Source: a virus (lineage: Duplodnaviria; Heunggongvirae; Uroviricota; Caudoviricetes). Taken from it: 64,000 nucleotides of DNA. The notes beneath the pieces are model-generated. The model did no database searches, was not told where the DNA came from, and worked only from the letters and a program-made list of their open reading frames with translations. How positions within the stretch are numbered: position 1 is the stretch's first letter; each line of letters opens with the position of its first letter. The stretch lies in IMG/VR virus record IMGVR_UViG_2529292913_000008, one strand, 5' to 3'. Made by a program: the position numbers and the translations under genes. Below, in pieces: positions 53,924-57,612 of this stretch.

Positions 53924-54583
53924 ATGGAAAGAAAAAACGCCAATATTGACGATGTTATAAGGACAGTTGAAACCGCCAGCGCGAAAGAGCTGGAAGAGCT
54001 TGCAGGTATTCGGGAAGCTGTTGAAGATTTGAAAGGGGAACGAGTTGCAACTGTTGATCCTGTCTCTCGCAGTGTGTCGGCATTAAATCGCACAATCGAA
54101 AATTCACGTCCTGACTTTGTGACCAATGCGCCATCAGTGGACCCTATTGTTGACGCAATAAAACGGCTTAATTTAGGGGACGTTTCTCGTATACGGGAGG
54201 ACAAAGTCACTAACCGTGCACAGCAGGCTGCACCAACAGCGCACAATCCCCCAAATAGACGAAGAGAGGCAATAACAGAGGATGTTAAAGCACAGCGGTT
54301 AGAAACGGTCAAACTCGCTCGTGATTTGAAAGGGGAACGCGTTGCAACGGTTGACCCAGTATCTCGCAGTGTGTCGGCATTAAATCGAACAATCGAAAAT
54401 TCCCGGCCAGACTTTGTGGCCAATGCGCCATCAGTAGACCCTATTGTTGACGCAATGAAACGGCTTAATTTAGGGGACGTTTCTCGTGTAGTTCAGGAGG
54501 GCATTGCTCAACAGGAACAGCAGGCCAAATCAACTACACCAAAGGGTAAAAACGACGCAGGAAGGCTATACCAGAGGATATAA
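53924..54583 (+). CDS. N-terminal segment of tape-measure protein (or chaperone) with an internal ~55 aa duplication
   Basis: direct repeats of about 160 bp at 54027-54190 and 54325-54488; downstream ORF frame is open from 54550, overlapping this stop. Confidence 0.5.
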   Translation: MERKNANIDDVIRTVETASAKELEELAGIREAVEDLKGERVATVDPVSRSVSALNRTIENSRPDFVTNAPSVDPIVDAIKRLNLGDVSRIREDKVTNRAQQAAPTAHNPPNRRREAITEDVKAQRLETVKLARDLKGERVATVDPVSRSVSALNRTIENSRPDFVANAPSVDPIVDAMKRLNLGDVSRVVQEGIAQQEQQAKSTTPKGKNDAGRLYQRI

Positions 54584-54621
54584 AGGCACAACGGACCGAA
54601 GCAGCCGAACACGCTCGCGAA

Positions 54622-57612
54622 ATGTTCGATCAAAAAGGCGGTGCGCAAAAAAGCCAAAACCAACGCGATGCGCGTGGTCGTTTTATTGGAAAGTCAGGGA
54701 GTAAGGCCGCAGCGGAAGATGCCCGTGCTGAACGTGCTGAAAAGGCCAGGCGCAAAGAGGATGATGAGCGTCTAAATGCTGAATCAGGTTTATTAAAAAA
54801 ACTGTCAAAAGTAGCTGAAGGCATAGGTAACCCTTCAGAGACTCGTGCCGTTGATGCGTTAGGTTATGCCGTTGCTGGTCCATTGTGGGCAGCAGGGAAG
54901 GAGCTTGGCGGGATATCAAAAGAAGTTGGTGGATCGCTTAATGGTGCCAGAAAGTCTATTGCCGATGTGATTCGTGGCAATGACGATAACAGCCGTAGAA
55001 AAGGTTTTTTTAGGCGTAAATCGCAAAATAGTGCCGATGTCGTTCAGGTTAACACCCAAAAACGGACAGTTCAGGAACTTCAGGAGCAGACCAGCGAAAT
55101 TAAAGAGGGCAATGACAAGATTCTCAGCGCCCTTGATCAGATAGCCAAAAACACCGGGAAAAAGAAGGGCGGCTTGCTGTCCAAACTATTTAGCCTGTTA
55201 GGGAAGGGGGCCGGTGGCGTCGCGTCGTTGTTAATGGGGCGTGGCATGCTGAAAAAAGCTGGAGCACTCGCTTTTGGCGCTCTGGGGGCAAAGAAACTTG
55301 TAGGAATGCTACGCGGTGGTGGCAAGAAGACTATCGCCCATGAAGGTGGAGATTTGGCTGCCCGGGCAGCAGGTAAACTTGGATTAAAGGCAGTTGGTAA
55401 AGGGGCGTTACGCGCAATTCCCTTAGTCGGCACAGTGGCTGGAGGTATTTATGATGCGGTAACCGGTTGGAATGATACAGAAGCGCAACGTCGAGCGTTT
55501 GGGCTTAAATCAGGACAAGATCCATCATTCCAGCAAAAAGCCGCTTATACGTTAGCCAATGTTCTTGATATGGGGGGACTGGTATCTGGTATTAGCAGCG
55601 CCATTGGTGAGGTTCTCAAATCACTTGGATTTGAGGATATCGGCAATATGTTGCAATCATTTTCGACGGAAAGTATTGCCCAGGCCATTGATAGTGGGAT
55701 TACCAACTTAGAAACATATATTTCTAACCTTGGCGACACCATTTCTACCAAGTTCGAAGATTACACAGCAAAGATTGGTGATGCTGTTTCAGCATGGTTT
55801 AGCGATACATCTAATAAGCTGCTTGAAAAGCTGGATGCCATCAAAGACTTCTTTACTGTTGATAACCTGAAACAGGTTTTCAGTGATGCAATTGATAGTG
55901 CAATTGATTTCATTAAGAACCCAGGGAAACACATTAAAGAGGCGGCTGGTAATATTTGGGATGGGGTTAAAAATTTACCTGGTAAAGCATTAGATGCAGC
56001 GGTTGATGCCGTTAAAAATACCCCTGCGGCAATGATTGTATCAAAAATACCCAATCCGATCGGCGAGGCTAATGCGAAAGAAATCGCTCCAGAGTTAAAA
56101 GCTCCGGTTAATAGCCACCAGGAGACATCTGATTCTAAAACTGAATCCGATGCCAAACAGACTAATATTGTTACCCGCGTGATAAATGCGGCACTGGACA
56201 CGGCGAAAGATAGCAATAAAACAGTTAAAGAAACTGCGAATCAGATTATCAATGCAAATGCCGCAGAAACGGGCAATAGCGCGTTGCAGAAAATTGATAA
56301 AGCTATTGGTCAAAATAGCTCGTCATCATCGTCGCTTAATACCACTGGCACCAGGAATGACATTCAGAAAGCTGCGGATACCTACAACAATGGCCGCTTG
56401 GATGTAAAAGTCGGAAGTCTTGGATCTGAAGGTAAGGCAAATCTCGATAAGTTGGCTCCGTATTTTGCTGAACTAGAGAATAAATATGGTCTTCCAGAAG
56501 GCACTCTTTACGCGATTGCTGCAACTGAATCTGGTGGTAATCCGTATGCAAAATCCCAAACCGGTGCTCTGGGAATGTTTCAGTTCACGGGGATTGCTCG
56601 TGAAGAGACTGGCTTAGCTGAAGGTGAATCGTTTGATCCTGTGAAATCGGCAGAAGCTGCGGCTCTTCTCATGAGCAAGTATCTGAAGCAAGCCAATGGA
56701 GACTTAAACGAGGCCATCACTGCATATAACGCTGGGTTTGGCACTATCAATAAGTGGAAAAAAGGCACAGGTGACTTATCGAAAGAAAACCGTGAGTACG
56801 CGATCAAGGTCAATACTCATCGTGCTCGCTATTTAGGTGGTGAAATCTATACACCTGGAGCAGGAGCACAGGGTGGGGCGCAATATGGAGTGAGGGGACC
56901 ACTGCCTGATAACGCTGTTATCGATCAGTCTACTGGCCTGGCGTTTACCCCTGGTGATAGCCCGTTTGAGAAAGGCGGTCTGGTAGACAAAATCGGCAAT
57001 GCTGTTGGCGTTAACGATCTGGTCAACAAATTCATGAATGGCCGGGGTATGCGTCGGGAAGTCGTTCAGGGAACGCTCGAAGAACGTGCACGAGGGAAGG
57101 GGACCGCAACAGCAGCTGGCAATGTGTATGTTGATACTCCGATGCCAGTTGAAGAGGCGCGTCCGGTGACCAGCAACTCAAGTTACTTTGACCAACTCGG
57201 CGCACAAATGGGGATTGATGGACTATTCGATAAACTCCGCAACTCGCCGGGGATGCGGAAAAATAATGCGCCTGAACCAGCCTCCACGTCCCAGGTGACG
57301 ACTGCCGCCAACGATTTGCAGCAACCAACCGGTCGTATGCAGATAGACGGACAGGTTATTAGTGACCTTGGTGGTTCCGGTGCCAAGCCGACAATGCAGT
57401 TGGCTGATAATACCGTTTCACTTGATGGTGAAACGAAGCGGCTGTTTGCGCAGATGACCTCATTACTTGCCAGGATTGAAGAGCACACCAAAGACTCGGC
57501 GAAAGGCCAGGGAACTGTCGTAAAGGTCAGCACGCCTCAGCCGGGCGTTATGCGCACGGTACCACTGTCAATTGATGATCCGTTGATGAATGACTACGCG
57601 AGAGTTGATTGA
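54622..57612 (+). CDS. sit: tail tape-measure protein with soluble lytic transglycosylase domain (Sit-like)
   Basis: 996 aa; SLT signature AIAATESGGNPYAKSQTGALGMFQF...AYNAG; Gly/Ala-rich repeats. Confidence 0.85.
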   Translation: MFDQKGGAQKSQNQRDARGRFIGKSGSKAAAEDARAERAEKARRKEDDERLNAESGLLKKLSKVAEGIGNPSETRAVDALGYAVAGPLWAAGKELGGISKEVGGSLNGARKSIADVIRGNDDNSRRKGFFRRKSQNSADVVQVNTQKRTVQELQEQTSEIKEGNDKILSALDQIAKNTGKKKGGLLSKLFSLLGKGAGGVASLLMGRGMLKKAGALAFGALGAKKLVGMLRGGGKKTIAHEGGDLAARAAGKLGLKAVGKGALRAIPLVGTVAGGIYDAVTGWNDTEAQRRAFGLKSGQDPSFQQKAAYTLANVLDMGGLVSGISSAIGEVLKSLGFEDIGNMLQSFSTESIAQAIDSGITNLETYISNLGDTISTKFEDYTAKIGDAVSAWFSDTSNKLLEKLDAIKDFFTVDNLKQVFSDAIDSAIDFIKNPGKHIKEAAGNIWDGVKNLPGKALDAAVDAVKNTPAAMIVSKIPNPIGEANAKEIAPELKAPVNSHQETSDSKTESDAKQTNIVTRVINAALDTAKDSNKTVKETANQIINANAAETGNSALQKIDKAIGQNSSSSSSLNTTGTRNDIQKAADTYNNGRLDVKVGSLGSEGKANLDKLAPYFAELENKYGLPEGTLYAIAATESGGNPYAKSQTGALGMFQFTGIAREETGLAEGESFDPVKSAEAAALLMSKYLKQANGDLNEAITAYNAGFGTINKWKKGTGDLSKENREYAIKVNTHRARYLGGEIYTPGAGAQGGAQYGVRGPLPDNAVIDQSTGLAFTPGDSPFEKGGLVDKIGNAVGVNDLVNKFMNGRGMRREVVQGTLEERARGKGTATAAGNVYVDTPMPVEEARPVTSNSSYFDQLGAQMGIDGLFDKLRNSPGMRKNNAPEPASTSQVTTAANDLQQPTGRMQIDGQVISDLGGSGAKPTMQLADNTVSLDGETKRLFAQMTSLLARIEEHTKDSAKGQGTVVKVSTPQPGVMRTVPLSIDDPLMNDYARVD

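What the first reader, a model, noticed from the sequence alone, without database searches (positions are those of the whole stretch)
53924..57612. Tape-measure gene split at an A5 run, with a duplicated 55-residue module
The 219-codon ORF ends inside GGTAAAAACG (54545-54554), and the downstream frame is open from 54550. A -1 shift there fuses both into one protein of about 1200 residues, close to the P1 Sit length I recall. The site is not a canonical slippery heptamer, so an indel is more likely than programmed frameshifting. The N-terminal part contains two about 160 bp direct repeats that could change tail length by recombination.
Basis: partly seen in the sequence, partly recalled or inferred. 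Interest (0 to 1): 0.45.

Follow-up and report, generated by a model that had tools for sequence, protein, structure and literature searches.

The report
Frameshifted P1 tape-measure gene (sit)
This is the single tape-measure/transglycosylase gene (sit) of a P1-like plasmid prophage, split because one A is missing from a run that is A6 in nearly all relatives. The cause is a sequencing miscall or a recent mutation, not programmed frameshifting, so the finding is ordinary.

Summary
The window is part of contig AIGC01000010.1, a 2012 draft of an E. coli DECA-collection strain carrying a P1-like phage-plasmid. The region 53924-57612 is sit, the predicted tape measure of P1 with a lytic transglycosylase domain.

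Adding one A to the A5 run (54548-54552) gives one 1229-residue ORF. Relatives have A6 and one continuous gene: 62 of 63 IMG/VR contigs and 287 of 288 complete E. coli records. A sister assembly is identical over 14.6 kb except for two homopolymer lengths.

There is no slippery heptamer, no downstream structure and no conservation of A5, so the shift is not programmed. I favour a homopolymer miscall (about 0.55) over a true recent mutation in an already damaged prophage (about 0.40).

The repeat is real: two 99-codon units. It is a common natural allele, found in about 20-27% of P1-like elements and intact in the plaque-forming phage phi456. P1's own one-unit allele looks like a recombinational deletion of it. 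Any effect on tail length is untested.

In passing: a conserved +1-frame extension at the 3' end of pmgB, just upstream of sit, looks like a candidate programmed frameshift.

The parts
52961..53842 (+). pmgB, the gene immediately upstream of sit. It is essential for P1 and proposed to be the tape-measure chaperone.
   Evidence: ORF of 293 aa. It corresponds to P1 pmgB. The chaperone role was proposed in PMC9024508.
53924..54583 (+). 5' fragment of sit: 219 codons, of which the last 11 (from AAC at 54551) are out of frame.
54026..54322 (+). Repeat unit 1: 99 codons, made of a 56-codon conserved core and a 43-codon diverged linker.
54323..54618 (+). Repeat unit 2: 99 codons in the repaired frame. 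The missing A lies in its linker, at the KKRRRK stretch.
54548..54552 (+). A5 run. Intact relatives have A6 here, so this is the site of the 1-nt loss.
   Evidence: Alignment. A6 is present in 62 of 63 IMG/VR contigs. The A5 version matches only 1 of 288 complete E. coli records.
54550..54580 (+). Stop-free overlap of the two reading frames.
54622..57612 (+). 3' fragment of sit: 996 codons from the first ATG, with the frame open from 54550. There is no Shine-Dalgarno sequence upstream of this ATG.
56461..56790 (+). Lytic transglycosylase (SLT) domain, residues 847-956 of the repaired protein. It carries the ATESGG motif.
   Evidence: Pfam PF01464, E = 3.4e-27. Translation.
57609..57968 (+). 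pmgA (baseplate wedge). Its start overlaps the sit stop.

Best explanation
sit is one gene. It encodes a protein of about 1229 residues: an N-terminal two-thirds reported as mostly helical in P1 Sit (PMC9024508), carrying two 99-residue tandem units near the N-terminus, plus a C-terminal lytic transglycosylase domain. This is the predicted tail tape measure of a P1-like phage-plasmid. In this record the gene appears split because the run that is A6 in relatives is written as A5. The most likely cause is a homopolymer undercall in the draft assembly (GCA_000249735.2), which was probably made from 454 data. On that reading the strain's real gene is intact and nothing unusual happens at the site.

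Shown: the deletion, its near-privacy to this strain's data, and the absence of frameshift signals. Inferred: that it is an error and not a mutation.
For: The window is 100% identical to AIGC01000010.1. AIGA-AIGZ accessions are the E. coli DECA collection (PMC3558956). The same centre's contemporaneous genomes were 454 Titanium data assembled with Celera (PMC3491183).

The sister DECA assembly AIGA01000018.1 (L069/L258) matches the window over 14.6 kb with 0 substitutions and only 2 homopolymer-length differences. One breaks sit in the window (A5 vs A6). The other breaks tub in the sister (A4 vs A5 at about 52679).

A second private homopolymer change, A8 vs A7 in pmgS, is on record only in this NCBI assembly.

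More than 30 plasmid and E. coli records are identical to 53900-54700 apart from one extra A. The only complete-genome record with A5 (CP019054.1) has sit and the neighbouring pmgB both flagged 'frameshifted' by PGAP.
Against: A Logan assembly of SRA run SRR063724 also has A5, so A5 is the majority call in at least one read set. I could not establish that run's platform or whether it comes from the same isolate.

The element is visibly degraded. IS2 truncates tail-fibre gene S. The repL frameshift (T6) is shared with other assemblies, including later ones. The pmgS T5 allele is widespread in later read sets and assemblies. A real pseudogenising mutation would therefore not be surprising.

The sequencing platform of this particular genome was not confirmed.
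Confidence: 0.55

Rival explanations
1. The A6-to-A5 change is a real, recent slippage mutation. It made sit a pseudogene in a P1-like plasmid that had already lost the ability to grow lytically. The strain would make a 219-residue N-terminal fragment, little or none of the rest, and no functional tails.
For: A5 is reproduced in an independent assembly of SRR063724. That contig also differs from the window by one SNP and an in-frame 12-nt deletion in bplA, so it may come from a second isolate sharing A5 by descent. The element carries IS2 in S, a repL frameshift shared by several assemblies, the widespread pmgS T5 allele and other IS copies. An independent A5 occurs in a one-unit lineage in IMG/VR (L058). 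Disrupted sit and pmgB are documented in other P1-like plasmids (PMC6906374).
Against: Two sister assemblies differ by 2 homopolymer indels and 0 substitutions in 14.6 kb, each indel hitting a different essential tail gene. From published E. coli mutation spectra (my knowledge), substitutions should outnumber homopolymer indels several-fold, so this pattern fits platform error better. The sister with an otherwise identical sequence has A6.
Confidence: 0.4
2. The split is functional. A programmed -1 ribosomal frameshift or transcriptional slippage at GGU AAA AAC produces full-length Sit from the A5 allele, perhaps alongside the short product.
For: A -1 shift anywhere in 54550-54580 gives a stop-free fusion. 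tRNA-Lys on AAA is slippage-prone in E. coli (my knowledge), so a trace of full-length product cannot be excluded.
Against: The site is T_AAA_AAC, not X_XXY_YYZ. The 88 nt downstream fold at -11.3 kcal/mol, weaker than the shuffled mean of -15.5 (z = +1.49). A5 is too short for efficient transcriptional slippage (my knowledge). A5 is not conserved: orthologues have A6 and one ORF.
Confidence: 0.03
3. These are two genuinely separate genes: a 219-residue repeat protein and a 996-residue transglycosylase.
For: Gene callers annotate them as two genes on this contig.
Against: Nearly all orthologous loci have one ORF. The only split exceptions are the A5 records above and error-prone assemblies such as 673R5. 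There is no Shine-Dalgarno sequence before ATG 54622. The last 11 codons of ORF 1 are out-of-frame sequence with no counterpart in relatives.
Confidence: 0.01

Closest known systems
Sit of phage P1 (YP_006507.1, 1140 aa), 'structural injection transglycosylase / putative tail ruler'
   Same: It is the orthologue. The gene order is the same: pmgB-sit-pmgA-bplA. DNA identity is about 96%. It has the same SLT domain. Sit was detected in P1 virions and assigned as tape measure (PMC9024508), and CRISPRi knock-down of sit abolishes plaque formation (scored essential; polar effects not excluded) (PMC10695390).
   Different: P1 has one 99-residue unit where the window has two. P1 has A6 and one continuous ORF.
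Sit of Escherichia phage phi456 (WNL49372.1, 1231 aa)
   Same: It carries the same two-unit allele. Over the first 232 codons there are only 5 differences (about 1 synonymous and 4 non-synonymous). The gene is intact, and the phage forms plaques and shows myovirus morphology by electron microscopy (PMC10967188).
   Different: phi456 has A6 and is not split. The C-terminal part is more diverged: overall 1132 identical residues over 1237 aligned columns.
Tape-measure rulers with internal repeats (lambda gpH, T4 gp29, TP901-1 and mycobacteriophage TMPs)
   Same: It is a long protein, mostly helical by prediction (PMC9024508 for P1 Sit; for the N-terminus here), encoded just upstream of the baseplate genes. 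It contains tandem units whose copy number varies between relatives. In those model systems, in-frame deletions and duplications change tail length proportionally (my knowledge).
   Different: No Pfam tape-measure model matches; only SLT does. The ruler role of Sit is a prediction and has not been tested by length engineering. The protein was not resolved in the P1 cryo-EM map (PMC12810830).
Programmed frameshifts next to tape-measure genes (lambda G/GT; dnaX A_AAA_AAG)
   Same: The split lies in the tail-gene neighbourhood and involves an A-run read by tRNA-Lys.
   Different: Those sites are conserved, have a proper heptamer and sit in the chaperone gene, not in the tape measure. None of this applies to the A5 site. 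A better candidate for a conserved frameshift lies at the 3' end of pmgB (see 'noticed in passing').

Membership tests
P1 sit orthologue | Collinear DNA and protein similarity to P1 sit, with the same flanking genes. | tested here: met
   DNA identity to P1, P7, JL22 and others is 96-98% over the whole region, flanked by pmgB and pmgA/bplA.
Tail tape-measure protein | Gene position immediately before the baseplate genes and after a putative chaperone, with a long and mostly helical product. | tested here: met
   Gene order is shown. The product is 1229 aa. The N-terminal 219 residues are predicted mostly helical, but at low confidence (pLDDT 55). The P1 literature reports a helical N-terminal two-thirds (PMC9024508).
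Tail tape-measure protein | Match to a curated tape-measure sequence model. | tested here: not met
   Pfam finds only SLT. PHROGs hits are families of unknown function, 'tail injection transglycosylase' and 'lytic tail protein'.
Tail tape-measure protein | Protein length sets tail length. | not testable with these tools
   This needs electron microscopy of phages carrying one-unit and two-unit alleles. No measurement was found.
SLT lytic transglycosylase domain (PF01464) | Profile match above the curated threshold, with the catalytic Glu-Ser motif. | tested here: met
   94.8 bits against a cut-off of 21.3, over residues 847-956. The ATESGG motif is present.
Programmed -1 ribosomal frameshift site | X_XXY_YYZ slippery heptamer in the zero frame. 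| tested here: not met
   The zero-frame sequence is GGT AAA AAC, giving T_AAA_AAC.
Programmed -1 ribosomal frameshift site | Stimulatory downstream structure. | tested here: not met
   The downstream 88 nt fold worse than shuffled controls (z = +1.49).
Programmed -1 ribosomal frameshift site | The two-frame arrangement is conserved in orthologues. | tested here: not met
   A6 with a single ORF is found in 62 of 63 IMG/VR contigs, in 287 of 288 complete E. coli records that match the 70-mer, and in all intact phage genomes.
Tandem duplication allele of sit | Two in-frame 99-codon units where P1 has one. | tested here: met
   The same architecture occurs in 11 of 59 IMG/VR contigs and in about 16 of 60 evenly sampled PLSDB records.

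The most novel reading that the evidence does not exclude
P1-like phage-plasmids exist in two tape-measure length classes: about 1130-1140 aa and about 1229-1231 aa. The classes are interconverted by recombination between two old 99-codon repeats, and the classical P1 allele is the deleted form. If Sit is a true ruler, the two classes should make tails that differ by about 15 nm, or three to four tube rings. That would be a natural tail-length dimorphism within one phage species.
Probability: 0.35. Interest if true: 0.3.

Novelty: already known. Interest (0 to 1): 0.12.

Why it matters
The split itself matters only for annotation. The two ORFs should be merged and marked as a frameshifted sit, and it should not be read as a recoding signal.

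Two by-products are modestly useful. First, the sit length dimorphism offers a natural experiment on whether Sit really is the P1 tail ruler. That assignment still rests on gene position, size and virion mass spectrometry. Second, the conserved +1-frame extension of pmgB may be the genuine G/GT-like frameshift of the P1 tail module, which has not been described in the papers I could search.

Tried and rejected
- **Programmed frameshift at the A-run.** Rejected on heptamer form, lack of downstream structure and lack of conservation.
- **Window-wide homopolymer errors.** I first took every homopolymer difference from P1 and CP057845.1 to be a private error. Look-ups then showed that repL T6 and pmgS T5 are real alleles seen in many assemblies. 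Only sit A5, pmgS A8 and possibly the A6 run at 39378 remain private, which weakened the artefact argument.
- **Sequencing platform.** The DECA genome paper is not held. Only indirect evidence from a sister paper of the same centre was found.
- **Direction of the duplication.** The only outgroup in the phage collection, Cronobacter phage JK004, has one unit, which argues for duplication. The chimeric one-unit alleles and the old dS between cores argue for a later deletion. I reconcile these as an old duplication followed by deletion, but this is inference.
- **Protein search with the Sit N-terminus.** It returned almost only partial close relatives.
- **Genome-contig scan with PmgB.** It found only identical copies.
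- **Structure prediction of the 219-aa fragment.** Confidence was low (pLDDT 55), so I did not use it for fold search.
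Full report
**What the window is.** The window is collinear with phage P1 and with IncY-type P1-like plasmids of E. coli at 95-99% identity. An exact-protein look-up placed it on NCBI contig AIGC01000010.1 of assembly GCA_000249735.2. Window 43924-64000 is 100% identical to that contig. AIGA-AIGZ accessions belong to the E. coli DECA (diarrheagenic) collection drafts of 2012 (PMC3558956).

**Checking the observation.** The ORFs at 53924-54583 (219 codons) and 54622-57612 (996 codons) are as described. GGTAAAAACG is at 54545-54554, with A5 at 54548-54552. 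The downstream frame is open from 54550, and the two frames overlap without stops over 54550-54580. Adding one A yields a single 1229-residue ORF. The direct repeats are real. The 165-nt cores at 54026-54190 and 54323-54487 differ at 12 positions. They are the conserved parts of two tandem 99-codon units.

**What the orthologues show.** P1, P7, JL22 and phi456 all read GGTAAAAAACG (A6) and have one continuous sit gene of 1130-1231 codons.
- Over 53900-54700, more than 30 plasmid and E. coli records are 99.9% identical and span 802 nt against the query's 801. They differ only by the extra A, and there is no 100% match.
- In IMG/VR the run is A6 in 62 contigs and A5 in one unrelated one-unit lineage, L058.
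- A 70-nt query centred on the run matches 288 complete-genome E. coli records, and exactly one carries A5. In that record (CP019054.1) PGAP marks both sit and the adjacent pmgB as 'frameshifted'.

**Why the shift is not programmed.** The zero-frame context is GGT AAA AAC, that is T_AAA_AAC and not X_XXY_YYZ. The 88 nt downstream fold less well than shuffled sequence (z = +1.49). There is no Shine-Dalgarno sequence before ATG 54622. The two-frame arrangement is not conserved. An A5 run is also too short for efficient transcriptional slippage (my knowledge).

**Evidence that it is an assembly error.**
- The sister DECA assembly AIGA01000018.1 matches the window over 14.6 kb (45661-60237) with zero substitutions and two homopolymer-length differences. 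These are sit A6 (sister) vs A5 (window), and A4 (sister) vs A5 (window) at about 52679 in tub. Each assembly thus has its own broken essential tail gene on an otherwise identical backbone.
- pmgS carries an A8 run (A7 in 68 of 68 IMG/VR contigs) that is on record only in this NCBI assembly.
- The same centre's contemporaneous genomes were 454 Titanium data assembled with Celera (PMC3491183), a platform known for such errors (my knowledge).

**Evidence that it is a real mutation.**
- A Logan assembly of SRA run SRR063724 also has A5. It differs from the window by one SNP and a 12-nt in-frame deletion in bplA, so it may be a second isolate.
- repL T6 and pmgS T5, which I first took for errors, recur in many assemblies including recent ones and are probably real alleles.
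- IS2 truncates the tail-fibre gene S, and broken sit and pmgB genes are documented in other P1-like plasmids (PMC6906374).

I put the artefact at about 0.55 and a real mutation at about 0.40. Only reads can decide between them.

**What Sit is.** Pfam finds one domain: SLT at residues 847-956 (E = 3.4e-27). PHROGs places the protein with P1-type 'tail injection transglycosylase' and 'lytic tail protein' families. The literature supports the tape-measure assignment:
- Gonzales et al. 2022 detected Sit in P1 virions. They assign it as the tape measure and argue that gp6, once linked to tail length, is a baseplate hub (PMC9024508).
- CRISPRi knock-down of sit abolishes plaque formation (PMC10695390).
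- A 2026 cryo-EM study names Sit the tape measure but could not resolve it, and counts 52 tube rings (PMC12810830).

The tape-measure label is therefore the accepted prediction, but the ruler function has not been tested directly.

**The duplication: anatomy and frequency.** Each unit has a 56-codon core (DLKGERVATVDPVSRSVSALNRTIENSRPDFV[T/A]NAPSVDPIVDA[I/M]KRLNLGDVSR) and a 43-codon linker. The missing A lies in the linker of unit 2. The two-unit form is a common allele: 11 of 59 IMG/VR contigs and about 16 of 60 evenly sampled PLSDB records. It is intact in phi456, which forms plaques.

**The duplication: age and history.**
- The cores differ at dS 0.27 and dN 0.025. The linkers differ at dS about 1.0 and dN 0.47. 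Window and P1 sit differ at dS 0.044 downstream of the repeats. The duplication is therefore much older than the P1 group, and both cores are under purifying selection.
- At the 12 positions that distinguish the two cores, most one-unit alleles, including P1, follow core 1 in the 5' half and core 2 in the 3' half. Several two-unit alleles have mosaic first cores.
- The simplest reading is that P1's one-unit allele arose from a two-unit ancestor by recombination between the cores, and that gene conversion continues.
- The single outgroup, Cronobacter phage JK004, has one unit, so the duplication would postdate that split.
- If the region acts as a helical ruler at 1.5 Å per residue, 99 residues correspond to about 15 nm. 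This has not been measured.

**Comparison with what is known.** This is the known gene sit, in a known long allele, with an ordinary frameshift of the kind annotation pipelines already flag. Internal repeats and their gain or loss are a known theme in tape measures (my knowledge). I found no paper describing the sit dimorphism, but it is a small addition and not a new kind of system.

**A lead noticed while checking for frameshift signals near sit.** pmgB is overlapped at its 3' end by a +1-frame ORF that runs to 12 nt before the sit start.
- The same arrangement occurs in 8 of 8 diverse PmgB homologues. These come from Cronobacter, Enterobacter, Yersinia, Xenorhabdus, a distant E. coli group and two Aeromonas, at 34-73% identity.
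- The +1 peptide carries a conserved motif, NLx[LV]YG[GNY][QIM]P...L.EK[YFL]K. In five of these lineages the motif lies wholly beyond the pmgB stop.
- Several lineages have no ATG, GTG or TTG upstream of the motif.
- pN/pS in the +1 frame is 0.08-0.36 for four within-clade pairs (Yersinia-Xenorhabdus, Yersinia-E. coli 40% group, the two Aeromonas, window-JK004); it is 0.62-0.68 for the two pairs involving Enterobacter.
- Among 76 P1-like loci, all 7 polymorphic sites between 53798 and 53906 fall on +1-frame third positions.
- The point where conservation changes frame carries NTT-AGN or NTT-TAG: CTT AGT G at 53792-53798 in the window, TTT AGA in Yersinia and Xenorhabdus, ATT AGA in the distant E. 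coli group, and GTT TAG or ATT TAG in Aeromonas. This resembles Ty1/prfB-type +1 sites (my knowledge).

This may be the G/GT-like frameshift of the P1 tail module. It is untested. (Notebook entry 4 gives the window's slip site as 53799-53805. The correct coordinates are 53792-53798.)

Noticed in passing
window 53792-53912 (with pmgB at 52961-53842); also L260, L276-L281: A +1-frame ORF overlaps the 3' end of pmgB and ends 12 nt before sit. It is conserved in 8 of 8 distant P1-like elements, with the peptide motif NLxLYGxQP...L.EKxK. Several lineages have no start codon for it. pN/pS in the +1 frame is 0.08-0.36 in four within-clade pairs (0.62-0.68 in pairs with Enterobacter). All 7 polymorphic sites among 76 loci fall on +1-frame wobble positions. 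The frame boundary carries CTT AGT G, TTT AGA or NTT TAG. This is a candidate programmed +1 frameshift, G/GT-like, in the putative tape-measure chaperone, and it is not described in the papers I searched.
   Followed up: partly
window 47220-47225 (repL; ORFs 46903-47172 and 47169-47747, minus strand): repL, the lytic replication initiator, is split by a T6 run that is T7 in P1 and in 63 of 69 IMG/VR contigs. The same split is on record in at least 8 assemblies, including later ones, so it is probably a real allele of this plasmid lineage.
   Followed up: yes
window 13889-13893 and 14380-14387 (pmgS, minus strand): pmgS carries two homopolymer changes. T5 instead of T6 is widespread in other assemblies and read sets, although it is 0 of 111 in IMG/VR. 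A8 instead of A7 is on record only in this NCBI assembly. pmgS is non-essential in P1 (PMC10695390).
   Followed up: yes
window about 63095-64000 (L250 19172-20445): An IS2-like element (InsC/InsD-type ORFs on the minus strand) truncates the variable part of tail-fibre gene S. The S ORF reads through into the IS end. The contig then continues into a DUF1283 gene.
   Followed up: partly
about window 52679 (tub), in sister assembly AIGA01000018.1 / L069: The sister DECA assembly has A4 where the window, P1 and CP057845.1 have A5. This would frameshift tub there. It is the only other difference from the window in 14.6 kb.
   Followed up: partly
window 3218-4426, about 45080-46192, and 34834-35775: There are two further transposase genes: a DDE_Tnp_1 ORF at 3218-4426 and an IS421-like copy next to hok. 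A Rep3-type initiator sits in a 2.2-kb segment (34694-36944) with no megablast match to P1 or CP057845.1, which suggests a replicon swap.
   Followed up: no
window 39378 and 48729 (intergenic): Two more homopolymer runs are one base shorter than in P1 and CP057845.1: A6 vs A7, and T6 vs T7. The run at 48729 is shared with the AIGA and AKNH assemblies. The run at 39378 could not be compared with a close relative.
   Followed up: partly
L261 (NZ_CP019054.1, plasmid p1540-3): This is the only complete-genome E. coli record carrying sit A5. It is a one-unit allele, with sit and the adjacent pmgB both annotated 'frameshifted' by PGAP.
   Followed up: partly
L278 (Xenorhabdus bovienii FO818638.1) 2501-3443: The gene range on record for the PmgB homologue is 943 nt (3n+1). 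It runs from the pmgB start to the end of the +1 extension, although the recorded product is 277 aa. This is as if the source annotated a joined or frameshifted feature.
   Followed up: no
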